Shown piece by piece: positions 776 through 62,605 of a stretch of DNA of 64,000 nucleotides; position 1 is the first letter of the stretch, and every line of letters starts with the position of its first letter. Source of the stretch: Parcubacteria group bacterium GW2011_GWB1_42_6 (GTDB lineage Bacteria > Patescibacteriota > Minisyncoccia > Portnoybacterales > GWB1-42-6); contig LCEC01000001.1 of the NCBI GenBank assembly GCA_000997475.1, positions 375 to 64,374 of the forward strand. Reading direction: 5' to 3'. The notes under the pieces were generated by a model that worked only from the letters and a program-made list of their open reading frames with translations, ran no database searches and was not told where the DNA came from. A program made the position numbers and the translations under genes.

Positions 776-1832
776 TTTCAGCGGCAATCGCGTTTTTATC
801 ATCGCCGAAGCGGGCAAAAATTTCATCCAAACCCGGGAAGAAAAAACGTCCGAGGAATATTTGGCCAATGCCAAAGAATTGATCAGGCTGGCCTATGAAG
901 CCGGAGCCGACGCGGTGAAATTCCAAACCCACAATTTGGATGATGAGCAATTTGAAACGAATATAACTTCGCCCCATTTTTTAGGCAGCGATCGGTATAA
1001 TTGGATAAAACGCAATGATCGGGCGGCAACGATTGATTTTTGGAAAGAGTTAAAAGCTTTCGCGGATGAATTGGGCATAATATTTTTTTCCACTCCCATG
1101 AGCCGGGGAGCGGCCGTAAAATTGGAAGAAATCAATGTGCCGCTTTGGAAAGTCGGTTCGGGCGATATTCTTGATTTTGTGATGCTTGATTATTTGGCGC
1201 AAACGAAAAAACCGATAATTCTTTCTTCGGGGATGAGCACTTTGGAAGAAGTCGATCGGGCGGTGGAATTTTTGAAAAAAAGGGAATCCAAAATCGCGCT
1301 TTTGCATTGCGTTTCGCGTTATCCTTGTCCGCCCGACGAGCTCAATCTTAAGACTATAGAATTCTTTAAAAATCGCTACAAAGCGCCGATCGGTTTTTCG
1401 GATCACTCAATCGGCTTTGAAACGGTTTTGGCGGCCGTGGAGCTGGGAGCGGTTATAATAGAAAAGCATTTTTCATTGAGCCGCGATCTGTGGGGAGCGG
1501 ATCACAAAGTTTCCATGACTCCGGATGAATTTGAACAAATGGTCAAGGCCGCGCGCAAAACGCAGGCTTCCAAATTGACAAACTTGGGCTCAACGGATAA
1601 GCTTCTACAAGACGAAGAAGTCGTTTTCAGGCCGATTTTCCGCAAAATTTTGCGCGCCAGCCGCGATTTGAAAGAAGGGGAAATTTTGGAAAAAAACGAT
1701 ATCTACGCGATGAGGCCCCAAGAAGACGCCCAAGACGGGCTGCCTTCCGAAGATTACGAAAAAGTTTTGGGTAAAAAATTGAAAAGAGACATAAAAAAAT
1801 ACGATCCGATTTCTCGGGATGTTATTTTTTAA
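750..1832 (+). CDS. NeuB-family nonulosonic acid synthase (N-acetylneuraminate / legionaminic / pseudaminic acid synthase-like), copy 1
   Basis: N-terminal VFIIAEAGKNF..AVKFQTH motif typical of NeuB/PseI/LegI TIM barrel, with a C-terminal SAF-like segment; 360 aa. Confidence 0.8.
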   Translation: MAGSKMDFNFSGNRVFIIAEAGKNFIQTREEKTSEEYLANAKELIRLAYEAGADAVKFQTHNLDDEQFETNITSPHFLGSDRYNWIKRNDRAATIDFWKELKAFADELGIIFFSTPMSRGAAVKLEEINVPLWKVGSGDILDFVMLDYLAQTKKPIILSSGMSTLEEVDRAVEFLKKRESKIALLHCVSRYPCPPDELNLKTIEFFKNRYKAPIGFSDHSIGFETVLAAVELGAVIIEKHFSLSRDLWGADHKVSMTPDEFEQMVKAARKTQASKLTNLGSTDKLLQDEEVVFRPIFRKILRASRDLKEGEILEKNDIYAMRPQEDAQDGLPSEDYEKVLGKKLKRDIKKYDPISRDVIF

Positions 1833-3068
1833 TATTATGGAACAGCCAAAAAGAAAAAAAATATTGATTCCCATTTTAAACCGCGCCCACTACGGGCGTT
1901 TAAGGTCGGTTTTGAAAGCTGTCAACGACCATCCAAAACTCGAGCTGATGATTCTGGTCGCTTCTCCGCTGGCTTATAGCAGTTTTTTTTTAAATCTCAA
2001 ACACAGCCGGCCGGCTTTGAAAGGGCAGGCTTTGCGTTGGTATTTAAAAGCTCGTTTTCTCTCTTGGGCGGGAAAATTGAATCCCCGATTTTTAATCAAT
2101 AAAGATTTTTTGATAAAAAGCATTCTTGACGACGGGTTTCCCATTTACAGCCGCGTCCCTTTTTTCATAGACGGCGGATCATCCGTTTCCATGGCCAAAT
2201 CGGTCGGTTTCGGACTAATAAAACTGGCCGATGAATTTAACAGGCTGAAGCCCGATGCGGTTTTCGTGAATGCCGACAGATTTGAAATGATGGCGGTGGC
2301 GTTGGCGGAGCCGGTGACGTGAGCGGAACGATTGACGAAAGCGTCAGGCACGCCATTACGAAACTCGCTCAAATCCATTTCACTTCAACCCAAGCCAGCC
2401 GCAACCGCGTCATTCAAATGGGTGAAAACCCCCAAACCGTTTTCGCGGTCGGTTCGCCCTCAATCGATATAGTCAAAAATCTCGATTTGGACGCGCTTCC
2501 CAAAATTTTGCCGCCGGGTTTTCAAATCAAAGACCCCTATCTTTTGGTGGTTTTCCATCCGGTGGCTACGGAAAGTTCGCAAAAAAATATTGCTTTGACC
2601 GAAAATATTTTGAAAGCGGTTGAAAATATGGCGATGCCCGCTATTTTTTTGGGATCCAATATTGACGGCGGTTCCAAAGAAGTCGGTTTAATGGTGAAAA
2701 AATTTCTTTCCAAAAACTTGCCCTTCGTTCATTTTTACAAAACTTTGCCCCCGGATGATTTTTATCGTTTTTTGGCGGGCGCTTCCTGCGCCCTGGGCAA
2801 TTCGTCGAGCTTTATCAGGGAAGGCGCTTTTTTTGGCGCGCCGGCGGTTATTGTCGGATCGCGCCAGCAAAAAAGGGAGCGAGGAGAAAATATAAAAGAA
2901 GCCGGTTGCAAAGCCCAAGAAATAGAGAGAGCCGTGAAAGATCAGATCGCCCACGGACGCTTTGCTTCAAGTCTAATATTTGGTTCGGGGAAAGCCGGCG
3001 AACAAATCGCTCAAATTTTGGCCGAGACAAATCCTCCAATTCAGAAAACTTTTTTTGATCGGAGTTGA
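1819..3068 (+). pseudogene. UDP-N-acetylglucosamine 2-epimerase (hydrolysing) NeuC/LegG homolog, split by a frameshift plus a ~30-nt deletion near 2286-2322
   Basis: ORF 1819-2322 encodes the N-terminal half (..DAVFVNADRFEMMAVALA..). ORF frame +2, open from 2286, encodes the C-terminal half starting GGAGDVSGTIDESVRHAITKL, matching the conserved GGEVSGTIDE motif. About 11 residues of the active-site segment are missing between the two halves. Confidence 0.55.
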
Positions 3069-21907: not shown

Positions 21908-22039
21908 TTTTCAAATTGCAAATTCTCCTCCTTCGCTCCTTCGGAGCTTCGGAAGGACATGGCAATTTCCAATTAAGGATGAAACTATTTATATAACTCC
22001 CCCAACCCCCTCTTATCTAAGAGGGGGAATCCGCCAAGA

Positions 22040-25818: not shown

Positions 25819-26763
25819 ATGAATTTTCTCGACATCAATCAATCTTACAAAAACGCGAAATTCGTTGTCGCGCCTTTTGGCTTTGAAGCCACCACGAGTT
25901 ATGGCGGAGGAACGAATAAAGGCCCGGCGGCAATAATCAAAGCCAGCGCCCAGGTTGAGCTTTTCGACGAAGAACTCTGGCGGGAAATCTACAAAAAGAC
26001 AGGCATTTTCACTTTGCCCGCAATAAAACCCGCCAAAAATATTCCCGGCGCCAAGAAACAGATTTCAAAAATAATCTCAAAAATTCTTGCGGATAAAAAA
26101 ATCCCGATTGTTTTGGGCGGCGAACATAGCATCACGCCTATGATAGTTGAAACATTTTCGGATTTCCTCCTCCCCTCGTCGAGGGGAGGCCATGGAGGGG
26201 TAATTAATCCTAAAATTACCTCCCCCGAACCCCTCCCTAAAAAGGAGGGAAGGAATTCCGCCGCTTCTTTCTCCATCCTCCAATTTGACGCCCACGCCGA
26301 TTTGCGCGATGGCTACTTGGGGCAAAAATATTCCCACGCGGCCGCCATGCGCCGATGTTTGGATAATGAGGGTGTTAATTTAGTCCAAGTCGGGATCAGG
26401 AACATCAGCAACGAAAATGATGAGTTGGTTTTTTGGGAAGCAAACAAAGATCGCATTAAAACTTTCTGGGCCAAAGATAAAAAAAATTGGAAGCTTTCCG
26501 AAATTATGGGTTCTCTTAGGGAAAATGTTTATTTAACCTTTGATGTTGACGCTTTTGATTCTTCGATTATGCCTTCAACCGGCACGCCCGAACCCGGAGG
26601 ATTGGATTGGTACGAAGTGATGGATATTTTGCGCGAAGTCGCCAAAACCAAAAACATCATCGGCATGGATTTTGTGGAGCTCGCTCCCATTAAAACCCTT
26701 CCCGCGCCGGATTTTTTGGTCGCCAAGATGATTTATAAGACGATAGGGTATATTTTAAAATAA
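25819..26763 (+). CDS. Agmatinase/arginase-family ureohydrolase
   Basis: Metal-binding motifs GGEHSIT, FDAHADL, SFDVDAFD; carries an in-frame palindromic insertion at 26166-26252. Confidence 0.75.
   Translation: MNFLDINQSYKNAKFVVAPFGFEATTSYGGGTNKGPAAIIKASAQVELFDEELWREIYKKTGIFTLPAIKPAKNIPGAKKQISKIISKILADKKIPIVLGGEHSITPMIVETFSDFLLPSSRGGHGGVINPKITSPEPLPKKEGRNSAASFSILQFDAHADLRDGYLGQKYSHAAAMRRCLDNEGVNLVQVGIRNISNENDELVFWEANKDRIKTFWAKDKKNWKLSEIMGSLRENVYLTFDVDAFDSSIMPSTGTPEPGGLDWYEVMDILREVAKTKNIIGMDFVELAPIKTLPAPDFLVAKMIYKTIGYILK
26166..26252. repeat. In-frame composite of three GC-rich hairpins inside the agmatinase gene
   Basis: cctcccctc-gtc-gaggggagg, ggaggggtaatt..aattacctcccc, ccctccc-taaaaa-ggaggg; the region encodes SSRGGHGGVINPKITSPEPLPKKEGRN. 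Confidence 0.6.
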
Positions 26764-30584: not shown

Positions 30585-30680
30585 CTTCGAGCCTGTCATT
30601 CGACCCCGAGGGTCTTAGACCCGAACGGGAGGGCCTCAGAGCCTCGAAGGCCCAACCTCCCTTTAGAAGGGAGGAGAAAA
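30585..30680 (+). promoter_or_regulatory. secA 5' leader made of four consecutive GC-rich hairpins
   Basis: gggtct-t-agaccc, cccgaacggg, gggcct..aggccc, and cctccctt-TAGA-aagggagg overlapping the SD. Confidence 0.5.
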
Positions 30681-30683
30681 ACG

Positions 30684-33368
30684 ATGTCCATATTCACCAA
30701 AATTTTCGGCGGGACGAATGAAAAGTCTGTTGCCAAATATAAAACGGTCATTGAAGAGATTAATAAGCTTGAACCGAAATTCGAGTCTTTTTCGGATGAG
30801 GAATTGAAATTGAAGACCGCCCAATTTAAAGAAAGATTGGGCAAAGGAGAAACTCTGGATGATATTTTGCCCGAAGCCTTCGCGGCTTGCCGCGAGGCGG
30901 CCAAGCGCGCGATCGGCCAACGGCATTTTGACGTTCAGTTGATCGGCGGAATGGTTTTGCACGAAGGAAAAATCGCCGAAATGAAAACCGGCGAAGGAAA
31001 AACTTTGGCGGCGACTTTGGCGGTATATCTCAACGCGCTTTCAGGCAAAGGCGCGCACGTTGTAACGGTGAACGATTATCTTTCCAAACGCGACGCCAAC
31101 TGGATGGGATCAATTTATCATTTTTTGGGTTTGAGCACCGGCTGCATCCAGCACGAAAAATCTTATGTTTACGAACCCAAAAAAATCGATCTCAACGAGG
31201 TAACGGTGGAAATGGAAAATCTCAAACAGGTTTCGCGGCGTGAGGCCTATGCCGCCGATATCACTTACGGCACGAACAACGAATTCGGCTTTGATTATTT
31301 GCGCGACAATATGGTGCCGGATTTCAGCGAGATGGCGCAAAGACCTGTCCTCCGAAGCCTTGGCGAAGGGGGAAAACACAACTTCGCCATTGTGGACGAA
31401 GTTGATAGCATTTTGATCGACGAAGCGCGCACGCCTTTGATTATTTCCGCTCCCGACGAAGATTCGGGCAAACTCTACGAAACTTTCGCGCGGATTGTTC
31501 CCCGCCTCAAAGAAAACGAGGATTTTAACATTGATGAAAAATTGCGCTCGGCCACTCTCACGGAAGAAGGCATTGAAAAAGTGGAAAAAATTTTGGGTTT
31601 GGGGAATATTTACACCGAAGGCGGAATAAAATACGTTCATCACTTGGAGCAAGCTTTGCGGGCGCAGGCGCTTTTTAAAAAAGATCGCCATTATGTCGTC
31701 AAAAACGGCGAGATCATTATCGTTGATGAATTTACCGGCCGCCTTATGCCCGGCAGAAGATATTCGGAAGGCCTTCATCAGGCTTTGGAAGCCAAAGAAA
31801 ACGTTACGGTGCAAAAAGAATCGCGGACTTTGGCCTCAATCACTTTTCAAAACTATTTCAGAATGTATGAAAAACTTTCGGGCATGACCGGAACCGCCAT
31901 GAGTTCGGCCGAGGAATTCGGCAAAGTCTATAATCTTGAAGTGGTGGAAGTTCCCACCCATAAGCCTCTTTCCAGGGGTGATAAATCCGATTTGATTTTT
32001 CGCACCGAGATGGGAAAATTCAAAGCGGTGATCCGTGAAGTGGAAGAACGGTACAAAAAAAATCAACCGGTTTTGATCGGCACGGCCTCGATTGATAAAA
32101 ACGAACTTTTGGACCAACTTTTAACCAAAGCCGGAATCAAGCATGAAGTTTTAAACGCCAAAAATCACGAACGCGAAGCTTTGATTATCGCCAAAGCCGG
32201 GGAGCCGGGCGCGGTGACGGTGGCGACAAATATGGCGGGGCGCGGAGTGGATATAATTTTGGGGGGAAGAATTGAATCTCACAACTCTCCCCAACCCCTT
32301 CTTAACTTAAGAGGGGGAGAGGGGGAGTTATCAAAGGATAGCTCTCAAGAAAAAAGTGAATGGCAAAAAAAACACGACTTGGTTGTTTCTTTGGGGGGAC
32401 TGGCGATCATCGGCACCGAGCGCCATGAAGCGCGCCGGATTGACGACCAGTTGCGCGGGCGCGCCGGCCGCCAGGGCGATCCGGGTTCTTCGCGGTTTTT
32501 CGTTTCGCTTGAGGACGATTTGATGAGGATTTTCGCGGCCGATCGCATCAAGGGAATGATGGAATTTTTAAAGATGCCCGAAGACGAGCCGATTGAAAAC
32601 AAAATGATCTCCAAGGCGATCGAATCGGCGCAGGAAAAAATCGAAGGATTCAATTTTGACACTCGCAAACATGTTTTGGAATATGACGATGTGATGAACA
32701 AACAGCGCGAAACGATTTATCGCAAGCGCCGGGAAATTTTGGAATCAAAAGATCTTAAAGAAAAAACTTTGGAAGCGATTTTGGGGGAAGTCAAAAAAAT
32801 CGCCCAATTCCATGCCGCGGGATACAAAGAAGAATGGAACACGAAAGAGCTCAAAGAATCATTGGGCGCGATTATGCCTCTTCCGGCTGATTTTGACGAA
32901 GCGGTTGGGAAAATTGAAACTTCCGAAAATCTGGTTGGCTTTTTGGAAAAACTCGCCGCCGATATTTACGAGATGAAAGAAAAACAAATCGGTTTTGAGC
33001 AGATGCGAGAAATCGAAAAAGTTCTCTTTTTGCGCACCACCGATATGATGTGGATGGATCATCTGGACGAGATGGAGCATTTGCGCGATTCCGTTCGCTT
33101 GCGCGCCTATGGCCAAAAAGATCCCTTGGTTGAATACAAAAACGAAGGCCACAAACTTTTTCAGGATTTGCTGGCTGCCATTCAGGCGCAATTTACGAGC
33201 ATGATTTACAAAGTGACTCTAACGCCGCCGGAGAATCGCCAATCGCGCGTCGCCAATCGCCCTTCGACAAACTCACCACAGGCAAGCTCGGGAAATAATT
33301 CGGTCGGCAGAAACGATCCGTGCCCGTGCGGGAGCGGGAAAAAGTATAAGAAGTGTTGTGGAAAATAA
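30684..33368 (+). CDS. secA: Preprotein translocase ATPase SecA
   Basis: MSIFTKIFGG.. start, DEAD-like motor motifs, and C-terminal zinc-binding CPCGSGKKYKKCCG; the ORF-track N-terminal extension from 30516 is not credible. Confidence 0.9.
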   Translation: MSIFTKIFGGTNEKSVAKYKTVIEEINKLEPKFESFSDEELKLKTAQFKERLGKGETLDDILPEAFAACREAAKRAIGQRHFDVQLIGGMVLHEGKIAEMKTGEGKTLAATLAVYLNALSGKGAHVVTVNDYLSKRDANWMGSIYHFLGLSTGCIQHEKSYVYEPKKIDLNEVTVEMENLKQVSRREAYAADITYGTNNEFGFDYLRDNMVPDFSEMAQRPVLRSLGEGGKHNFAIVDEVDSILIDEARTPLIISAPDEDSGKLYETFARIVPRLKENEDFNIDEKLRSATLTEEGIEKVEKILGLGNIYTEGGIKYVHHLEQALRAQALFKKDRHYVVKNGEIIIVDEFTGRLMPGRRYSEGLHQALEAKENVTVQKESRTLASITFQNYFRMYEKLSGMTGTAMSSAEEFGKVYNLEVVEVPTHKPLSRGDKSDLIFRTEMGKFKAVIREVEERYKKNQPVLIGTASIDKNELLDQLLTKAGIKHEVLNAKNHEREALIIAKAGEPGAVTVATNMAGRGVDIILGGRIESHNSPQPLLNLRGGEGELSKDSSQEKSEWQKKHDLVVSLGGLAIIGTERHEARRIDDQLRGRAGRQGDPGSSRFFVSLEDDLMRIFAADRIKGMMEFLKMPEDEPIENKMISKAIESAQEKIEGFNFDTRKHVLEYDDVMNKQRETIYRKRREILESKDLKEKTLEAILGEVKKIAQFHAAGYKEEWNTKELKESLGAIMPLPADFDEAVGKIETSENLVGFLEKLAADIYEMKEKQIGFEQMREIEKVLFLRTTDMMWMDHLDEMEHLRDSVRLRAYGQKDPLVEYKNEGHKLFQDLLAAIQAQFTSMIYKVTLTPPENRQSRVANRPSTNSPQASSGNNSVGRNDPCPCGSGKKYKKCCGK
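32284..32328. repeat. In-frame GC-rich palindromic insertion within secA
   Basis: ctccccaacccc ttcttaacttaaga gggggagaggggg encodes SPQPLLNLRGGEGE. Confidence 0.6.
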
Positions 33369-33728: not shown

Positions 33729-33770
33729 TATAAGTGAGTTATTTACGCTATAGCGTAAATAACTCACTTA
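33729..33770. repeat. Perfect 18-bp-stem palindrome
   Basis: taagtgagttatttacgc tatagc gtaaataactcactta. Confidence 0.8.
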
Positions 33771-33849
33771 TGGAAATTTGAAGGGGACATTCAGAAATAA
33801 TTAAAATAATTAAAAAGGACGGAATTTTTCCGTCCTTTTGCGTTTTTAA

Positions 33850-34435
33850 CCAGATAAACCACCAGCGTAAGCTGGTGAGTGCGTTTAAAAGCGTAGCTAT
33901 TGTACAATAAAATCACCTCGGGAAAGGAGGTGATTTTAAACATGAGCAGAAGCTATCTGCTGTATCAACTCGACCACTGCACTTACCATTGCAGTTATCA
34001 TATCGTGTGGACACCACGATTCCGCGGTAAGGTTTTGGCCGACAACTATATTAAAGCAGAATTAAAAAGAATGTTCAAACAGATTGCCAACTGGAAAGGA
34101 CTAAGGATTTATGCTTGGCACATCGGAGATGAGCACATCCATCTGCACATCTGCATTCCTCCCAAATATTCTATTGCCTACATCATTCAAATTCTCAAGG
34201 GAAAAACTTCTGGCTGGATCAAAAAGAAAACCAAGAAGTTTCCCAAAGGAGTCCTCTGGGCCAGGGGATACTTTGTTTCGACCGTTGGCATCACGGAAAT
34301 CGCCGTGAAAAAATATATTGAAAACCAGCAACACCATCAAATTGAACTTTCTCAATTAAAACTTTGTTAGCCGGCTGGCGTCAGCCAGCAAAAAGATACC
34401 CCCAGCGTTTAAGCTGGGGGTAGTTCATTTTGGCC
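33850..34435 (+). mobile_element. IS200/IS605-family insertion sequence (tnpA only) with left-end and right-end hairpins
   Basis: Y1 HUH transposase ORF flanked by similar hairpins: accagc-gtaa-gctggt at 33861 and cccccagc-gtttaa-gctggggg at 34401. Confidence 0.55.
33942..34370 (+). CDS. tnpA: IS200/IS605 family Y1 (HUH) transposase TnpA
   Basis: YHCSYHIVWTPRFR and HIHLHICIPP (HuH) motifs. Confidence 0.8.
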   Translation: MSRSYLLYQLDHCTYHCSYHIVWTPRFRGKVLADNYIKAELKRMFKQIANWKGLRIYAWHIGDEHIHLHICIPPKYSIAYIIQILKGKTSGWIKKKTKKFPKGVLWARGYFVSTVGITEIAVKKYIENQQHHQIELSQLKLC

Positions 34436-43652: not shown

Positions 43653-43728
43653 GAGTTTGCGCTCCCCCTCTTCCTTGCGCGCTTCATATTTATAGCATAG
43701 AATGAGGTAAATTACAAACCCCCGCACC

Positions 43729-43868
43729 TAATCGGCATAATTGAATTCTCTTTCTTCTCTGTCATCCCCGCGCAGGCGGGGATCCAGATTAATTCAGAAC
43801 CTGGATTCCCCCCGTAGCTGCGGGGCGGGAATGACAAATATAAAGCCAATGCCGATTAGGTGCGGGGG
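43729..43868. mobile_element. MITE-like element A with 19-bp perfect terminal inverted repeats
   Basis: TIR CCCCCGCACCTAATCGGCA / TGCCGATTAGGTGCGGGGG; internal multi-hairpin core. Confidence 0.6.
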
Positions 43869-46937: not shown

Positions 46938-48809
46938 ATGACGGCCAAGGAATTACGCGGTAAATATCTTGAATTTTTCAAAGCTCGGGGGCACGCGGTT
47001 ATCCCTTCGGCTTCTTTGGTTCCGCAAAACGATCCCACAGTGCTTTTTACCACCGCCGGAATGCAACCTTTAGTGCCGTATCTTTTGGGCGAAAAGCATC
47101 CCCAAGGAAAGCGGCTTGTCAATGTTCAAAAATGCCTCCGCACCAACGATATTGATGAAGTGGGTGATGCCACTCACGGAACTTTTTTTGAAATGCTTGG
47201 CAATTGGTCTTTGGGCGATTATTTTAAAAAAGAATCGTTGAGTTGGAGCTATGAATTTTTAACTTCGCCTGAATGGTTGGGATTGGATAAAAACCGTTTG
47301 GCTGTTTCGGTTTTTGCAGGGGATGACGACGCGCCATTTGATGAAGAAGCTTTTGAAATTTGGAGATCTTTGGGTATTTCTGAAAAAAGAATCACCCGGC
47401 TTCCCAAAGAAAACAATTGGTGGGGGCCGGCCGGAGAAACCGGGCCATGCGGACCGGATTCGGAAATATTTTATTGGACCGGCGCTCCGGATCAGGTTCC
47501 GGAAAGTTTCAACGATGATAACGATCTTTGGGTGGAAATCTGGAATAACGTTTTTATGCAATATAATAAAAACATAAAAGGCTCCTTTGAACCGCTTGCG
47601 CAAAAAAATGTTGACACGGGTTTGGGGCTGGAAAGGGCGCTGGTTACTCTCAATGGCTACGACGAGATTTATAAGATTGACGTTATCCGGCCGATTATTG
47701 AAAAGATAGAAGAAATTTCAGGGAAGAAATACGATGAAACTATCTCTGAAATCCCCCTTAATCCCCCTTTTACAAAGGGGGGAAATCAGAAGGCTATGAG
47801 AATCGTGGCGGATCATTTGAAAGCGAGCGCTTTTTTAATCGCCGATGGAGTTGAGCCTTCCAATACGGAGCGAGGCTATGTTTTGCGCCGGCTGATTCGG
47901 CGCGCGGTGAGATATGGCCGGCAATTGGGAATTGAAGGAATTTTTTGTTTTAAAATCGCGCGGGTCGCGATTGAAATATACAAAGATATTTATCCGGAAC
48001 TTTCGCGGGAAGAAAATTCAATCGAAGAGCAATTAACGAAAGAAGAAGAAAAATTTGCCAAGACTCTTGAATCCGGATTGAAACAATTTGAAAATGTAAA
48101 AATCAAAATTAAAAATGACAGCGCAAAATCTGGAATTATTTCCGGGGAGATCGCTTTTAATTTGTATCAGACTTACGGTTTTCCCGTCGAGCTGACAAAA
48201 GAATTGGCCAAAGAAGCCGGATTGGAAGTTGACGAGGAAAAATTTAAGGATGAAATGAAGCGCCATCAAGAACTTTCCCGCGCCGGAGCCGAACAAAAAT
48301 TCAAAGGCGGTTTAGCCGATCATTCGGAACAAACCGTCAAATACCACACGGCGGCGCATTTGCTTTTGGCGGCTTTGCGTCAAACTTTGGGCGGAGACGT
48401 AAATCAGCGTGGCGCCAATATAACAAGCGAACGATTGAGATTTGATTTTTCGCATCCGCAAAAAATGACTCCGGAACAAATTAAAGAAGTTGAGGATTTG
48501 GTGAATGAAAAAATCAAAGAAGACTTGCCGGTTGCTTGCGAAGAGATGGCCTTGGATGAAGCGAAAGCAAAGGGAGCGACTGGAATTTTCGATTCAAAAT
48601 ACGGGGAGAGGGTGAAAGTTTATACAATTGGAAGCCCTTCGACAGGTCCTTCGACAGGCTCAGGGCAATGCTCGGGGTCCGCGGCTTTCAGCCGCGAGAT
48701 TTGCGGCGGGCCGCATGTTGAAAGAACGGGAGTTTTGGGAAATTTTAAGATCGTTAAAGAAGAATCGTGTTCGGCCGGAGTGAGAAGAATCAAAGCGGTG
48801 CTGAAATAA
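46938..48809 (+). CDS. alaS: Alanine--tRNA ligase, short form (catalytic, tRNA-recognition and editing domains; no C-Ala domain)
   Basis: N-terminal class II core, editing-domain HTAAHLL motif; 623 aa; contains two in-frame insertions. Confidence 0.85.
   Translation: MTAKELRGKYLEFFKARGHAVIPSASLVPQNDPTVLFTTAGMQPLVPYLLGEKHPQGKRLVNVQKCLRTNDIDEVGDATHGTFFEMLGNWSLGDYFKKESLSWSYEFLTSPEWLGLDKNRLAVSVFAGDDDAPFDEEAFEIWRSLGISEKRITRLPKENNWWGPAGETGPCGPDSEIFYWTGAPDQVPESFNDDNDLWVEIWNNVFMQYNKNIKGSFEPLAQKNVDTGLGLERALVTLNGYDEIYKIDVIRPIIEKIEEISGKKYDETISEIPLNPPFTKGGNQKAMRIVADHLKASAFLIADGVEPSNTERGYVLRRLIRRAVRYGRQLGIEGIFCFKIARVAIEIYKDIYPELSREENSIEEQLTKEEEKFAKTLESGLKQFENVKIKIKNDSAKSGIISGEIAFNLYQTYGFPVELTKELAKEAGLEVDEEKFKDEMKRHQELSRAGAEQKFKGGLADHSEQTVKYHTAAHLLLAALRQTLGGDVNQRGANITSERLRFDFSHPQKMTPEQIKEVEDLVNEKIKEDLPVACEEMALDEAKAKGATGIFDSKYGERVKVYTIGSPSTGPSTGSGQCSGSAAFSREICGGPHVERTGVLGNFKIVKEESCSAGVRRIKAVLK
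47752..47786. repeat. In-frame GC-rich palindromic insertion within alaS
   Basis: tccccctta atccccctttt acaaa ggggggaaat encodes PLNPPFTKGGN. Confidence 0.6.
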
Positions 48810-48856: not shown

Positions 48857-48935
48857 GTCATTCCCGCGCAGGCGGGAATCTAGATTAATTCAGAATTAGA
48901 CTTGGGTCTGGATCCCCGTTTTCACGGGGATGACA
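48857..48935. repeat. TIR-less copy of the MITE-A core (GTCAT..ATGAC multi-hairpin unit)
   Basis: gtcattcccgcgcaggcgggaatctagattaattcagaa.. is about 80% identical to 43761-43837. Confidence 0.55.
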
Positions 48936-61501: not shown

Positions 61502-62605
61502 ATGACTATTGGCATTAACGCCTCGGCGGCTGTCAAAAAGAATAGAACCGGAGTGGAAGAATACGCTTATCAGCTCATAAAGCATTTGGCGATGATTCCC
61601 GAGTCCCAAAAGCATCGTTTTTTTCTATATTTGCCATCCGCAGTTTTAGCAAAGGAAGGTTTGCCCGACAATGTTTTTGATTTTTCTTTCCCTGAAAATT
61701 TTATAATAAAAAAACTTTGGTGGCCGCTGCCTTTCTTCTGGACGCAAATAAGATTGTCTCTGGAAATGATTTTTTTTGCGCCGGACGTTCTTTTCATCCC
61801 CGTTCATATTTTGCCTTTCATTCATCCAAAAAAATCCATTGTTTGTGTTCACGGCCTTGAATATGAATATCTGCGCGGATTCTATTCTTTTTCCCATCGT
61901 TTGTTTTTGCGTTGGAGCACCAAATTTTCCGCCGCGAAATCTTTCCGGATAATCGCGGTTTCTCAAAATACCAAGAACGATTTGGCAAAAATATATAAGA
62001 CAGATACTGATAAAATAAAAGTGGTAAAACACGGGATTTCCTTTCCCCCTTTAGAAAGGGGGATTAAGGGGGATTTTTTAAGGAAGAAAGAAAAATATAT
62101 TTTATATCTAGGCCGCATCGAAACCAAGAAGAATATCCAAGGAATTATTGAAGCGTATGAAATTCTGAATAACAAATATAGCATTCACCACAAGCTTGTT
62201 TTAGCCGGTTCAAAAGGATACGGCCATAAGAATTTAAAAATACCGAGCGATGTGATTCAGACCGGATTCGTGAGCCAAGAAAAAAAAGAAGTCTTGATGA
62301 ACAACGCCGCAATATTTCTATTTCCCTGTTTTTACGAGGGTTTTGGTTTGCCGATTCTTGAAGCTCAAGCGGCGGGAATTCCCGTCGTGACTTCTTATAA
62401 TTCTTCAATGCCGGAAGTGGCCGGGGAAGGGGCTTTATTTGTTGATCCGCGCAATCCGGCTCAAATCGCCCGGGCCGTTAAAAAAATAATTGACGACAAT
62501 CTCTTGCGTGATAAACTGATACAATCGGGATTTGAGAACATAAAAAAATTTTCTTGGGAAAAATGCGCTCGGGAAACGCTGGATTTTTTAAGCAGCTTGG
62601 AATAG
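61502..62605 (+). CDS. Glycosyltransferase family 4 (GT-B)
   Basis: C-terminal EGFGLPILEAQAAGIPVVT sugar-donor-binding motif. Confidence 0.75.
   Translation: MTIGINASAAVKKNRTGVEEYAYQLIKHLAMIPESQKHRFFLYLPSAVLAKEGLPDNVFDFSFPENFIIKKLWWPLPFFWTQIRLSLEMIFFAPDVLFIPVHILPFIHPKKSIVCVHGLEYEYLRGFYSFSHRLFLRWSTKFSAAKSFRIIAVSQNTKNDLAKIYKTDTDKIKVVKHGISFPPLERGIKGDFLRKKEKYILYLGRIETKKNIQGIIEAYEILNNKYSIHHKLVLAGSKGYGHKNLKIPSDVIQTGFVSQEKKEVLMNNAAIFLFPCFYEGFGLPILEAQAAGIPVVTSYNSSMPEVAGEGALFVDPRNPAQIARAVKKIIDDNLLRDKLIQSGFENIKKFSWEKCARETLDFLSSLE
62041..62075. repeat. In-frame GC-rich palindromic insertion within the GT4 gene
   Basis: ctttccccctttagaaagggggattaagggggat encodes SFPPLERGIKGD. Confidence 0.55.

What the first reader, a model, noticed from the sequence alone, without database searches (positions are those of the whole stretch)
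26166..26252. Composite of three stacked GC-rich hairpins (87 bp, 29 codons) inside the agmatinase/arginase-family gene
cctcccctc-gtc-gaggggagg, then ggaggggtaatt...aattacctcccc, then ccctccc-taaaaa-ggaggg, are inserted between the GGEHSIT and FDAHADL metal-binding motifs. They add a Gly/Pro/Lys-rich peptide (..SSRGGHGGVINPKITSPEPLPKKEGRNS..). This is the largest intragenic member of the palindrome family. Its position between catalytic motifs of a binuclear-metal enzyme raises the question of whether the enzyme still functions.
Basis: seen in the sequence. Interest (0 to 1): 0.65.

Follow-up and report, generated by a model that had tools for sequence, protein, structure and literature searches.

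The report
Triplex-motif repeat pair inside agmatinase gene
An 87-base insert made of two inverted copies of a small repeated DNA motif (a hairpin plus a mirror-image third segment, the kind known from E. coli as BoxC/PIT) sits in frame in a loop of an otherwise intact polyamine enzyme of a groundwater Parcubacteria bacterium; these repeats were described as lying between genes, so this shows they can also settle inside genes.

Summary
Window 26166-26252 is an 87-nt, 29-codon, in-frame insert between GGEHSIT and FDAHAD of an agmatinase, and it folds into three hairpins. 108 of 111 homologues lack it. It is identical in six contigs from different groundwater samples.

The "three hairpins" are better read as two inverted units. 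Each unit is a pyrimidine arm, a loop, a purine arm, a 4-nt spacer, and a third purine segment that mirrors the purine arm. This is the architecture of class II purine-motif intrastrand triplex motifs (BoxC/PIT/TMECO; Holder et al. 2015). Those also occur as inverted pairs of two types, but were reported as intergenic.

The window holds five such G/C-rich motifs against 0.05 expected. Four are in coding sequence, including a 12-codon insert in alanyl-tRNA synthetase. A co-linear composite lies intergenically in another metagenome contig. Nearest relatives carry other units at the same agmatinase codon.

The enzyme is probably functional. All metal ligands are present, dN/dS is about 0.10, the operon is conserved, and the insert is modelled as a disordered loop at the sheet edge opposite the metal site.

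How the units spread is unknown. An IS200-type transposase lies 7.6 kb away, but nothing links it to them. Verdict: new variant of a known kind.

The parts
25819..26763 (+). Agmatinase (arginase-fold ureohydrolase) gene, 314 aa, host of the insert. It lies in a conserved cluster murB - S30AE - PvlArgDC - deoxyhypusine-synthase-like - agmatinase - FMN reductase.
   Evidence: Pfam PF00491 E 9e-56. PDB hits to agmatinases. Foldseek 3pzl TM 0.84. Neighbours. The same gene order is seen in relatives.
26166..26252 (+). The 87-nt (29-codon) in-frame insert, which is the composite element of unit A plus inverted unit B. It is translated as F116/L117 to G144/R145; boundaries are ambiguous by about 3 nt.
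   Evidence: Absent from 108 of 111 homologues. Removing it restores the native loop length: ETFSD-NSAAS-FSIL against EAYRD-AGHKD-FSIL. It is 76% identical and co-linear with an intergenic composite in L103/L165.
26169..26201 (+). Unit A, a class II purine-type triplex motif on the + strand. Y arm CCTCCCCTCG (26169-78), loop T, R arm CGAGGGGAGG (26180-89), spacer CCAT, third (reverse-Hoogsteen-type) segment GGAGGGGT (26194-26201). It allows 8 G.G-C / A.A-T / T.A-T triplets.
   Evidence: My ITxF-like scan and the repeat finder I2. It is 87% identical to the unit at the same site in L002 and 80% identical to an intergenic unit in L083.
26219..26249 (-). Unit B, the same kind of motif on the - strand. 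Read on the - strand it is CCCTCC, loop TTTTTAG, GGAGGG(G), spacer TTCG, third segment GGGGAGG. It allows 6 full triplets, plus 1 over a G-T pair.
   Evidence: Scan. Unit A is 62% identical to the reverse complement of unit B. The matching half of the L103 composite has compensated stem changes.
26194..26225 (.). Central hairpin, formed by the two third segments plus TAATT/AATTA of the two inverted units (GGAGGGGTAATT - aatcctaa - AATTACCTCCCC).
   Evidence: The same 12+12 nt centre occurs in L103/L165.
21995..22027 (-). Intergenic family member upstream of murB: CCCCCTCTTA ga TAAGAGGGGG tt GGGGGAGTT (9 triplets). It is 88% identical to the unit that occupies the agmatinase site in the sister organism (L001).
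47750..47781 (-). Family member in frame inside alanyl-tRNA synthetase, encoded peptide IPLNPPFTKGGN. This is a 12-residue insertion.
   Evidence: Scan. There is a gap opposite it in Aquifex AlaRS 1riq. It is absent from all 119 other nearest AlaRS homologues.
62044..62075 (+). Family member in frame inside a GT4 glycosyltransferase, in the inter-domain linker (peptide FPPLERGIKGD). It shares the exact 22-mer AAAGGGGGATTAAGGGGGATTT with the AlaRS copy.
   Evidence: Whether it is an insertion relative to homologues was not tested.

Best explanation
The 87 nt are one copy of a small dispersed DNA repeat. It consists of two inverted units of a G/C-rich 'intrastrand triplex motif': a hairpin with a pyrimidine arm and a purine arm, followed after 4 nt by a third purine segment that mirrors the purine arm. 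This is the architecture described for BoxC/PIT/TMECO elements. The repeat became inserted in frame into a permissive loop of the agmatinase gene in the lineage of this Parcubacteria bacterium (GW2011_GWA1_42_7). It is read through by the ribosome and adds a flexible 29-residue Gly/Pro/Ser/Lys-rich loop. That loop lies on the side of the beta-sheet away from the binuclear metal site, and the enzyme stays functional.

Shown here: the insertion, its family membership by architecture and sequence, its multi-copy dispersed nature, its tolerance in coding sequence, and purifying selection on the host gene.

Inferred: translation of the insert, its distance from the active site, and enzyme activity.

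Not known: how the units are copied to new sites. My best guess is a process that acts on folded single-stranded DNA at replication forks or repair gaps, with turnover or conversion between copies. This could be a trans-acting enzyme or template switching. Selection would then keep only in-frame, stop-free copies in surface loops.
For: 1. It is an insertion. 108 of 111 homologues lack it, and removing it restores the native loop length.

2. Architecture. Both units have the order Y-R-third segment, with the third segment antiparallel to (a mirror of) the purine arm. In the family members with asymmetric arms (22006 copy, L001, unit B) only the mirror reading fits, not the direct one. In 186 other asymmetric purine-arm hairpins from metagenome loci, 47 are followed by a mirror segment and 17 by a direct one. 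Opposite A the third segment has T 30, A 32, C 4, which matches the purine-motif rule A.A-T / T.A-T. The rule and the element class are described in PMC4666352.

3. Over-representation. There are 5 G/C-rich motifs in 64 kb, against 0.05 in Markov shuffles with a maximum of 1.

4. Dispersed family. An exact 22-mer is shared by the copies in AlaRS and GT4. The 22006 intergenic copy is 88% identical to the unit in L001's agmatinase. Unit A is 80% identical to an intergenic unit in L083. The whole composite is 76% identical and co-linear with an intergenic composite between an epimerase and a pilin gene in L103/L165.

5. Inverted pairs of two different unit types are the common arrangement in environmental contigs. 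They are reported for 5 of the E. coli K-12 loci, and I saw one in E. coli.

6. Dynamics at the site. The sister gene (83% aa identity, 100% bootstrap) carries a different unit type at the same codon. P0002 carries a unit A homologue, but in the tree it sits as the earliest branch beside the insert-less genes P0005, P0006, P0015 and P0016. All 5 differences between the window and L002 units are structure-neutral: one compensated stem pair, A to T in the third segment, and 2 spacer bases.

7. Function retained. H103, D157, H159, D161, D242, D244 and E287 are present. dN/dS is 0.10 for window vs L001, both insert-bearing, and 0.10-0.12 for the pairs that involve the insert-less L003. The polyamine operon is conserved. 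The AF2 model has pLDDT 87, with residues 121-146 below 50 and no secondary structure, between H105-117 and E151-156.

8. Generality. AlaRS in this genome and in three other Parcubacteria carries such units in one loop.
Against: - Triplex formation was not, and cannot be, tested here. For TMECO it was shown only for isolated single strands, not in vivo.
- For the A-type arm (GAGGGGAGG) mirror and direct repeats are nearly the same, so the triplex reading rests on other family members.
- Unit B is weak: a 6-bp stem and a 7-nt loop, just outside the ITxF loop limit.
- No target-site duplication, target motif or mobilising enzyme was found.
- The tree cannot decide between one ancestral insertion with a clean loss and two independent gains (WIN+P0001+P0002 bootstrap 17%).
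- Translation of the insert is inferred from frame and selection only.
- Distance to the metal site is inferred from fold topology, not measured.
- One population variant (L187) has the gene frameshifted elsewhere.
Confidence: 0.72

Rival explanations
1. The element is a non-autonomous hairpin transposon (REPIN / IS200-IS605-type MITE) moved in trans by a HuH Y1 transposase. The IS200-family TnpA encoded 7.6 kb downstream is one candidate. This rivals only the unspecified copying step of the best explanation.
For: An intact IS200-type TnpA with flanking hairpins lies at 33942-34370 (Pfam PF01797 E 3.7e-31, NCBIfam NF033573 114.9 bits). REPINs are likewise inverted doublets of hairpin units thought to move as single-stranded DNA (PMC3116915). 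The composite recurs as a whole at an unrelated locus.
Against: The RAYT model scores 25.8 bits against a cut-off of 80. The TnpA's own flanking hairpins show no similarity to the units (best E 0.012 for an A-rich 14-mer). No TnpA homologue was found in 1.49 Mb of fetched loci, most of which were chosen for carrying such motifs. No conserved 5' tetranucleotide was seen. Holder et al. found no link of TMECO to mobile elements.
Confidence: 0.12
2. The palindrome arose locally, by template switching or snap-back synthesis at a stalled fork or by quasi-palindrome correction. On this view it is not a copy of a dispersed element.
For: Inverted duplication is a known outcome of template switching (established knowledge). 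Units A and B are inverted and only 62% alike. No target-site duplication was seen.
Against: The same composite, with the same order of parts and an identical 12+12-nt centre, lies at an unrelated intergenic site in another organism. Unit A with its flanks TTTCCT...GGGGTAATTAAT recurs in L083. Exact 22-mers are shared between copies in unrelated genes.
Confidence: 0.06
3. It is a selected nucleic-acid signal inside the gene that acts on the mRNA. It could be a translational pause at the Shine-Dalgarno-like GGAGG runs, a stability element, or a pyrimidine-type RNA triplex, rather than passive repeat DNA.
For: The RNA fold is strong (-49.7 kcal/mol, z -4.6). It contains several GGAGG/GGGAGG runs. 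Related units sit directly upstream of start codons in viral contigs. A similar hairpin holds the SD-like run upstream of secA.
Against: Copies occur in both orientations relative to the host genes. The T-or-A rule opposite A is that of the purine motif, which Holder et al. state does not form in RNA. There is no Rfam match: none at gathering score, and the best sub-threshold hit is 25.1 bits against a gathering score of 80. Most orthologues do without it.
Confidence: 0.06
4. The insert has inactivated the enzyme, or marks a decaying gene (pseudogene in progress).
For: It lies between two metal-binding motifs. One population variant (L187) carries a frameshifting replacement farther downstream in the same gene.
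Against: The ORF is intact in 15 contigs. All ligands are conserved. dN/dS is 0.10 between two insert-bearing genes, the same as for pairs involving an insert-less gene. The operon context is conserved. The loop is at the N-terminal end of strand 151-156, whereas the ligands lie just beyond the C-terminal ends of the strands (plus fold topology).
Confidence: 0.04
5. It is a native or adaptive protein loop selected for its peptide.
For: The peptide is conserved within the population.
Against: It is absent from 108 of 111 homologues. The sister lineage has a different peptide encoded by a different unit type. The sequence symmetry is at the DNA level. The model shows a disordered segment.
Confidence: 0.02

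Closest known systems
BoxC / PIT elements / TMECO and other G/C-rich class II intrastrand triplex motifs (Hoyne et al. 2000; Holder et al. 2015, PMC4666352)
   Same: The order is pyrimidine arm, loop, purine arm, 3-4 nt spacer, then a third purine segment antiparallel to the purine arm with G.G-C and A/T.A-T triplets. They are G/C-rich in an A/T-richer genome, multi-copy and strongly over-represented against shuffles. They occur in both orientations and as inverted pairs made of two different unit types. They have no recognisable transposase or terminal repeats. They are associated with local gain, loss and replacement between close relatives.
   Different: The stem sequences differ (CCTCCCCTC / CCCCCTCTTA / CCCCCTTT instead of CCCTCNCCC). 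Stems are shorter, at 6-9 triplets. The host is a CPR/Parcubacteria bacterium. Above all, 4 of 5 copies in the window lie in frame inside protein-coding genes, whereas TMECO in E. coli K-12 is reported as always intergenic. In the one E. coli pair I inspected the third segments point outward; here they face each other.
Rickettsia palindromic elements (RPE)
   Same: They are palindromic repeats inserted in frame into unrelated housekeeping genes. They are translated as extra peptide segments that appear compatible with fold and function (PMC10969869).
   Different: RPEs are about 150 bp, belong to ten Rickettsia families and encode a conserved peptide. The present units are 30-35 nt (87 nt as a pair), have the three-part triplex-type architecture, and occur in another phylum. 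Sequence similarity to RPEs was not tested.
REPINs (inverted REP doublets) and their RAYT transposases
   Same: A short hairpin unit occurs as an inverted doublet that folds into a larger hairpin or cloverleaf. The doublet seems to be the recurring entity (PMC3116915).
   Different: REPs/REPINs are extragenic and cluster next to a RAYT gene. Here there is no RAYT, most copies are intragenic, and each unit has an additional mirror third segment.
Small dispersed repeats (SDR) of Nostoc/Anabaena (Elhai et al. 2008; recalled from memory, paper not held)
   Same: They are very small (about 20-30 nt) hairpin-forming mobile-looking repeats without a known mobilising enzyme. As I recall, some copies were reported inside genes.
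   Different: Different sequences and phylum. I could not verify their architecture or their intragenic behaviour here.

Membership tests
Class II purine-motif intrastrand triplex motif (ITxF definition; BoxC/PIT/TMECO class) | Three blocks on one strand in the order pyrimidine arm, purine arm, third (reverse-Hoogsteen) block | tested here: met
   Unit A at 26169-26201 (+) and unit B at 26219-26249 (-). Definition from PMC4666352.
Class II purine-motif intrastrand triplex motif (ITxF definition; BoxC/PIT/TMECO class) | Third block antiparallel to the purine arm, giving G.G-C and A.A-T or T.A-T triplets | tested here: met
   Unit A gives 8 triplets and unit B gives 6, plus 1 over a G-T pair. 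Family members with asymmetric arms fit only the mirror reading. In the wider sample the counts are mirror 47 vs direct 17, and opposite A the base is T 30, A 32, C 4.
Class II purine-motif intrastrand triplex motif (ITxF definition; BoxC/PIT/TMECO class) | Stem 6-15 nt (at most one mismatch if longer than 7) and loops 1-6 nt | tested here: inconclusive
   Unit A meets it (8-9 nt; loops 1-3 and 4). Unit B has a 6-nt stem but a first loop of 7 nt. That is outside ITxF's 1-6 but inside Hoyne's 0-10.
Class II purine-motif intrastrand triplex motif (ITxF definition; BoxC/PIT/TMECO class) | Over-representation relative to scrambled sequence, especially of G/C-rich motifs | tested here: met
   5 observed against a mean of 0.05 (maximum 1) in 20 Markov-1 shuffles of the window.
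Class II purine-motif intrastrand triplex motif (ITxF definition; BoxC/PIT/TMECO class) | The single strand actually folds into a triplex (CD/NMR) | not testable with these tools
   Shown for TMECO oligonucleotides only. The folding tools here model Watson-Crick pairs only.
TMECO / BoxC proper | Consensus CCCTCNCCC N3-6 GGGNGAGGG N3 GGGNGAGGG | tested here: not met
   The arms are CCTCCCCTC/GAGGGGAGG/GGAGGGG and CCCTCC/GGAGGG/GGGGAGG. A true TMECO was recovered by the same scanner in L016 and in E. coli. This is therefore the same class but not the same family.
TMECO / BoxC proper | Intergenic location | tested here: not met
   4 of 5 window copies are inside ORFs with Pfam-supported functions. 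The coding fraction of the window is 0.87.
TMECO / BoxC proper | Occurrence as inverted pairs combining two different unit types | tested here: met
   Unit A plus inverted unit B, 62% alike. Many such pairs occur in metagenome loci. Described for E. coli.
REP/REPIN-RAYT system | A RAYT (REP-associated Y1 transposase) gene flanked by the same repeats | tested here: not met
   The only Y1 gene in the window is IS200-type (NF033573 114.9 bits; RAYT model 25.8 against a cut-off of 80). Its flanks are unlike the units. Only 64 kb of the genome was seen.
REP/REPIN-RAYT system | Extragenic distribution | tested here: not met
MITE (non-autonomous DNA transposon) | Terminal inverted repeats matching a resident IS, plus target-site duplications | tested here: not met
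   No consistent direct repeat flanks the copies. GAAAT flanks the AlaRS copy only. There is no similarity to the IS200 ends.
Rickettsia palindromic elements | In-frame insertion into unrelated conserved genes with the fold retained | tested here: met
   Agmatinase and AlaRS. The AF2 core is intact.
Rickettsia palindromic elements | About 150-bp element of one of the RPE sequence families, encoding a conserved peptide | tested here: not met
   The length is 87 nt (units 30-35 nt). The peptides differ between copies and depend on frame and orientation. Sequence comparison with RPE consensus sequences was not done.
Agmatinase / ureohydrolase (host protein) | Binuclear-metal ligand set (His, Asp-x-His-x-Asp, Asp-x-Asp) and the conserved active-site Glu in the arginase fold | tested here: met
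   H103, D157, H159, D161, D242, D244 and E287 are invariant columns and are present. Fold match to 3pzl, 1wog and 7lba. Enzyme activity itself is not testable.

The most novel reading that the evidence does not exclude
Triplex-type hairpin units may be a structure-defined class of mobile DNA with no transposase of their own. On this reading they copy themselves, or overwrite one another, through folded single strands at replication or repair. In gene-dense CPR/Parcubacteria genomes they would routinely land inside genes and become a systematic source of the lineage-specific disordered loops seen in CPR proteins. The recurring hits at the same codon of agmatinase and in the same loop of AlaRS would then reflect a real target preference rather than only selection for permissive sites.
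Probability: 0.25. Interest if true: 0.8.

Novelty: new variant of a known kind. Interest (0 to 1): 0.55.

Why it matters
BoxC/PIT/triplex motifs have been known since the 1990s. Their function and their means of spread remain unexplained, and they were characterised as intergenic.

Here the same architecture sits in frame in housekeeping genes of a reduced-genome CPR bacterium. Orthologous sites are empty, singly occupied, doubly occupied, or occupied by a different unit type. This gives dated gain, loss and replacement events inside alignable coding sequence, which is the material needed to work out how these elements move and what they target.

It also offers a concrete DNA-level origin for some of the unexplained small insertions in CPR proteins. 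It shows that an enzyme can carry a 29-residue repeat-encoded loop between catalytic motifs while remaining under normal purifying selection. Practically, such inserts can mislead annotation and homology modelling of CPR proteins.

Tried and rejected
- **Single heptamer.** CCTCCCC is not enriched in the window (5 observed vs 6.8 expected). The signal is in the architecture, not the word.
- **Sister genomes in GTDB.** The related-loci scan of genome contigs returned only two moderately close Patescibacteria loci, plus Pelagibacter and Coxiella. These were useful only as negative controls.
- **Insert peptide search.** A protein search with the insert peptide failed, first because the query was too short and then with no hit at E<=10.
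- **Rfam.** No match at gathering score. The best sub-threshold hits were MIR5565 (25.1 bits vs 80) and sX13 (19.8 bits vs 50), both dismissed.
- **IS200 TnpA as mobiliser.** No similarity between its ends and the units, and no co-occurrence in 1.49 Mb of loci. Kept only as a low-probability rival.
- **Single or repeated insertion.** The NJ tree is not decisive. WIN+P0001 has 100% bootstrap, but the position of P0002 is unresolved.
- **Target-site duplications.** None is consistent across copies.
- **Exact 33-mers.** The 33-mers of the AlaRS and GT4 copies are not exact in the viral loci. Only the 20-mer R+third-segment part is, always preceded by a matching pyrimidine arm.
- **Programmed bypass, intein or intron.** Rejected. 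The insert is in frame, stop-free and far too small, and all five intragenic copies examined are in frame.
- **Elhai et al. 2008 (SDR).** The paper could not be retrieved.
Full report
**1. The observation**

Window 26166-26252 reads CCTCCTCCCCTCGTCGAGGGGAGGCCATGGAGGGGTAATTAATCCTAAAATTACCTCCCCCGAACCCCTCCCTAAAAAGGAGGGAAG.

It lies in ORF 25819-26763 (+, 314 aa). This ORF is an arginase-fold agmatinase:
- Pfam PF00491, E 9e-56.
- Best solved relatives are agmatinases 3pzl, 3lhl and 1wog.
- The AlphaFold model matches 3pzl with TM 0.84.

They are also the minimum-free-energy fold of 26160-26260, closed by an outer stem. Folded as DNA the energy is -23.5 kcal/mol (z -3.45), and as RNA -49.7 (z -4.60). 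None of 200 dinucleotide shuffles folded as well.

The segment is 29 codons, in frame and without a stop, between GGEHSIT and FDAHAD.

**2. It is an insertion, and it is real**

Among 111 aligned homologues (56-83% identity), only the window protein, P0001 and P0002 have residues in these columns. Removing the 29 codons leaves ETFSD-NSAAS-FSIL. That is the same length as the loop of insert-less relatives, EAYRD-AGHKD-FSIL.

The exact 314-aa protein is on 15 contigs of independent groundwater assemblies. The DNA of the insert region is identical in six contigs from several samples.

The organism is Parcubacteria group bacterium GW2011_GWA1_42_7 (100% AlaRS match, longest contig 64,708 bp).

**3. 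Anatomy: two inverted three-part units, not three stacked hairpins**

Unit A, on the + strand:
- Pyrimidine arm CCTCCCCTCG, then loop T.
- Purine arm CGAGGGGAGG, then spacer CCAT.
- Third segment GGAGGGGT.

Unit B, read on the - strand:
- Pyrimidine arm CCCTCC, then loop TTTTTAG.
- Purine arm GGAGGG(G), then spacer TTCG.
- Third segment GGGGAGG.

In both units the third segment is the mirror image of the purine arm. It could therefore lie antiparallel on that arm as G.G-C, A.A-T or T.A-T triplets. Unit A allows 8 triplets. Unit B allows 6, plus one over a G-T pair.

I wrote a scanner for this architecture, requiring at least 6 triplets. It finds five G/C-rich instances in the window, against 0.05 (maximum 1) in Markov shuffles:

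| Coordinates | Strand | Location |
|---|---|---|
| 21995-22027 | - | intergenic |
| 26169-26201 | + | agmatinase, unit A |
| 26219-26249 | - | agmatinase, unit B |
| 47750-47781 | - | alanyl-tRNA synthetase |
| 62044-62075 | + | GT4 glycosyltransferase |

The coding fraction of the window is 0.87. Four of five copies in genes is therefore what random placement would give.

**4. Mirror, not direct**

For the A-type arm (GAGGGGAGG) mirror and direct repeats almost coincide. Family members with asymmetric arms decide the matter:
- TAAGAGGGGG is followed by GGGGGAG(TT), both in the 22006 copy and in L001.
- GGAGGGG is followed by GGGGAGG in unit B.

I also tested a sample not chosen for this property. 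It comprised 186 other asymmetric purine-arm hairpins in 119 metagenome loci. Of these, 47 are followed within 1-7 nt by a mirror segment and 17 by a direct one. Opposite A the third segment carries T 30, A 32 and C 4 times.

A plain duplication would give A only. The A-or-T rule is that of the purine triplex motif (PMC4666352).

**5. What is known**

Holder et al. 2015 (PMC4666352) describe exactly this class. BoxC elements were rediscovered as potential intrastrand triplex (PIT) elements and then named TMECO. They are class II purine-motif intrastrand triplex motifs with the consensus CCCTCNCCC N3-6 GGGNGAGGG N3 GGGNGAGGG.

The paper reports the following:
- G/C-rich motifs are strongly enriched over scrambled genomes.
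- In E. coli K-12 the 23 copies are always intergenic.
- At five loci two units form an inverted pair, always one type A with one type B.
- Isolated strands form a stable triplex in vitro, but duplex wins when the complement is present, and in vivo footprinting gave no evidence of a triplex.
- No promoter or terminator activity was found.
- No link to transposons, phages or plasmids was found.
- The loci are unusually variable between strains.

My scanner recovers true TMECO copies in a Rickettsiales contig. A TMECO query hits 5409 of 5426 E. coli genomes, with a median of 16 places and no annotated feature under the listed best matches. One locus I read is an inverted pair.

**6. A dispersed family, and the composite recurs as a whole**

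- The AlaRS and GT4 copies share the exact 22-mer AAAGGGGGATTAAGGGGGATTT.
- Its 20-nt core occurs exactly in 22 viral contigs, each time preceded by a matching (T)CCCCCTTT arm.
- The hairpin CCTCCCCTC-N3-GAGGGGAGG occurs in more than 119 metagenome stretches. About 37% are followed by a mirror third segment of at least 8 triplets.
- Convergent pairs of two different unit types are common there.
- L083 has unit A with the same flanks (TTTCCT...GGGGTAATTAAT) at an intergenic site, 80% identical.
- L103/L165 carry, between an epimerase gene and a pilin gene, a composite that is co-linear with the window insert and 76% identical. It reads CCTCCCCTCATTGAGGGGAGG-GCGG-GGAGGGGTAATT-caataa-AATTACCTCCCC-CAA-CCCCTCTTT-ttc-AAAGAGGGG.

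The 87 nt therefore behave as one recurring module.

**7. History at the agmatinase site**

With the insert masked, the window gene pairs with P0001/L001 (83% identity, 100% bootstrap). P0002/L002 is closest to the insert-less P0005 and P0006. In the tree it is the earliest branch of the clade that also holds the insert-less P0005, P0006, P0015 and P0016.

L001 carries, at the same codon, a single unit of a different type: CCCCCTCTTA-ga-TAAGAGGGGG-cta-GGGGGAG. All three blocks have changed together. This unit is 88% identical to the window's intergenic copy at 22006.

L002 carries a unit A homologue that is 87% identical, although synonymous divergence of the two genes is about 1.7. Its five differences are one compensated stem pair, A to T in the third segment, and two spacer bases.

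Either the site was hit more than once, or a resident unit was overwritten and another cleanly lost. The tree cannot decide (WIN+P0001+P0002 bootstrap 17%).

Genomes whose agmatinase is empty show no such motifs in 31 kb of flanks (L003-L005). L001 has two in 1.1 kb.

**8. Not only this gene**

The AlaRS copy encodes IPLNPPFTKGGN. Aquifex AlaRS has a 12-residue gap there, and none of the other 119 nearest homologues has these residues. P0123, P0127 and P0142 have other inserts in the same loop. The DNA of P0123 and P0127 again shows such units.

Other agmatinase orthologues carry in-frame perfect palindromes in other loops. L064 has a 15-bp stem encoding RPVRGSASNGA. L067 has a 15-bp stem with a 36-nt loop.

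In-frame colonisation of loops by small palindromic repeats therefore looks like a general trait of these Parcubacteria. This recalls Rickettsia palindromic elements (PMC10969869). I found no paper describing it for CPR bacteria.

**9. Does the enzyme still work?**

Evidence that it does:
- H103, D157, H159, D161, D242, D244 and E287 are present and invariant.
- The gene sits in the conserved cluster PvlArgDC - deoxyhypusine-synthase-like - agmatinase - FMN reductase.
- dN/dS is 0.10 between the two insert-bearing genes, and 0.10-0.12 for the pairs that involve the insert-less L003.
- The AlphaFold model has mean pLDDT 87. Residues 121-146 are below 50 and unstructured, between helix 105-117 and strand 151-156.

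In the arginase fold the ligands lie just beyond the C-terminal ends of the parallel strands (H103 after strand 95-99; D157, H159 and D161 after strand 151-156). A helix-to-strand connection enters at the opposite, N-terminal edge. I therefore infer a distance of about one strand length, roughly 20 A. This was not measured.

A caveat: one population variant (L187) has a 63-to-40-nt replacement at 26476-26538 that frameshifts the gene.

**10. Mechanism**

Shown here: insertion, family membership by architecture, dispersal, and tolerance in coding sequence.

Inferred: the insert is translated into a flexible loop.

Unknown: how it is copied. An intact IS200-type Y1 transposase lies at 33942-34370. 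However, it is not a RAYT, its end hairpins do not resemble the units, and no homologue occurs in 1.49 Mb of motif-bearing loci.

I therefore favour a copying or conversion process that acts on folded single strands at forks or repair gaps, followed by selection for in-frame, stop-free copies in permissive loops. I rate this step as speculative.

**11. Verdict**

- The feature is a new variant (intragenic, in frame, in CPR bacteria) of a known kind of element (BoxC/PIT-type triplex motifs). Its behaviour resembles that of Rickettsia palindromic elements.
- Interest is moderate.

Noticed in passing
window 33942-34370 (+), flanks 33850-33940 and 34370-34425: An intact IS200/IS605-family Y1 transposase gene (HUH motif HIHLHI). 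It has end hairpins CCACCAGCGTAAGCTGGTG upstream and TACCCCCAGCGTTTAAGCTGGGGGTA downstream. In population contigs the gene is called shorter (99 aa in L188/L190) or not at all (L189).
   Followed up: partly
window 33730-33771: A perfect 42-nt palindrome with 21-nt arms (ATAAGTGAGTTATTTACGCTA / TAGCGTAAATAACTCACTTAT). It lies between a DUF3850 gene and the IS200 element.
   Followed up: no
window 43719-43868 and 48857-48896: A second repeat family. A roughly 150-bp MITE-like element with 20-nt terminal inverted repeats (CCCCCGCACCTAATCGGCAT / ATGCCGATTAGGTGCGGGGG) lies between efp and mnmA. Its inner module GTCATCCCCGCGCAGGCGGGGATCCAGATTAATTCAGAA recurs (92% over 40 nt) downstream of alaS.
   Followed up: partly
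window 30656-30674, ATG at 30684: The hairpin CCTCCCTTTAGAAGGGAGG ends 9 nt before the secA start codon. Its 3' arm is the Shine-Dalgarno-like GGGAGG, so the ribosome-binding site may be sequestered. The secA gene is called as two pieces in some population contigs (L189, L190).
   Followed up: no
window 1819-2322 and 2319-3068: UDP-GlcNAc 2-epimerase is split into two overlapping ORFs in different frames (Pfam profile positions 27-86 and 108-346). This could be a frameshift, a pseudogene or a sequencing error.
   Followed up: no
L187 1053-1092 (= window 26476-26538): One population variant of the agmatinase gene has 63 nt replaced by 40 unrelated nt containing the hairpin CTGCCTTTattgAAAGGCAG, which frameshifts the gene. 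The site (after FWAKDK) is where other orthologues (P0070, P0073, P0077, P0085) carry inserts. Six clustered SNPs lie at 25920-25982.
   Followed up: partly
L064 (P0039) and L067 (P0065) agmatinase genes: Other Parcubacteria agmatinases carry in-frame perfect palindromes in other loops. One is CGCCCCGTTAGAGGCAGTGCCTCTAACGGGGCG (11 codons). Another is GCCCCCACACCAAAA...TTTTGGTGTGGGGGT (15-bp stem, 36-nt loop). These are plain hairpins, not triplex-type units.
   Followed up: partly
L193 (P0127), L194 (P0123); protein P0142: AlaRS of other Parcubacteria has one or two triplex-type units in the same loop as the window's AlaRS insert. The encoded peptides are rich in PP..KGG.
   Followed up: partly
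L042-L063 (viral contigs): The exact 20-mer AAAGGGGGATTAAGGGGGAT occurs in 22 viral contigs of 42-64% G+C, always after a (T)CCCCCTTT arm. In many it ends 4-8 nt before an ATG, so the third segment may serve as a ribosome-binding site there.
   Followed up: partly
L016 11103-11341 (Rickettsiales bacterium AM-377-L16): Three identical canonical TMECO units (CCCTCTCCCTCTGGGAGAGGGTTAGGGTGAGGG) lie in tandem at 103-bp spacing, close to an agmatinase homologue.
   Followed up: no
L001 1059-1085: A second triplex-type unit (CCCCTCCTTTAGGAGGGGCTAGGGGAG) starts 8 nt after the agmatinase stop codon of the sister organism.
   Followed up: no
metagenome loci L069, L070, L077, L095, L097 and others (65-72% G+C): The same CCTCCCCTC...GAGGGGAGG hairpin is part of a different, longer multi-hairpin repeat in high-G+C organisms (...cccctcccggtcgctgcgcgaccgaCCTCCCCTCAACGAGGGGAGGtggaaga...). 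It often occurs twice about 100 nt apart.
   Followed up: no
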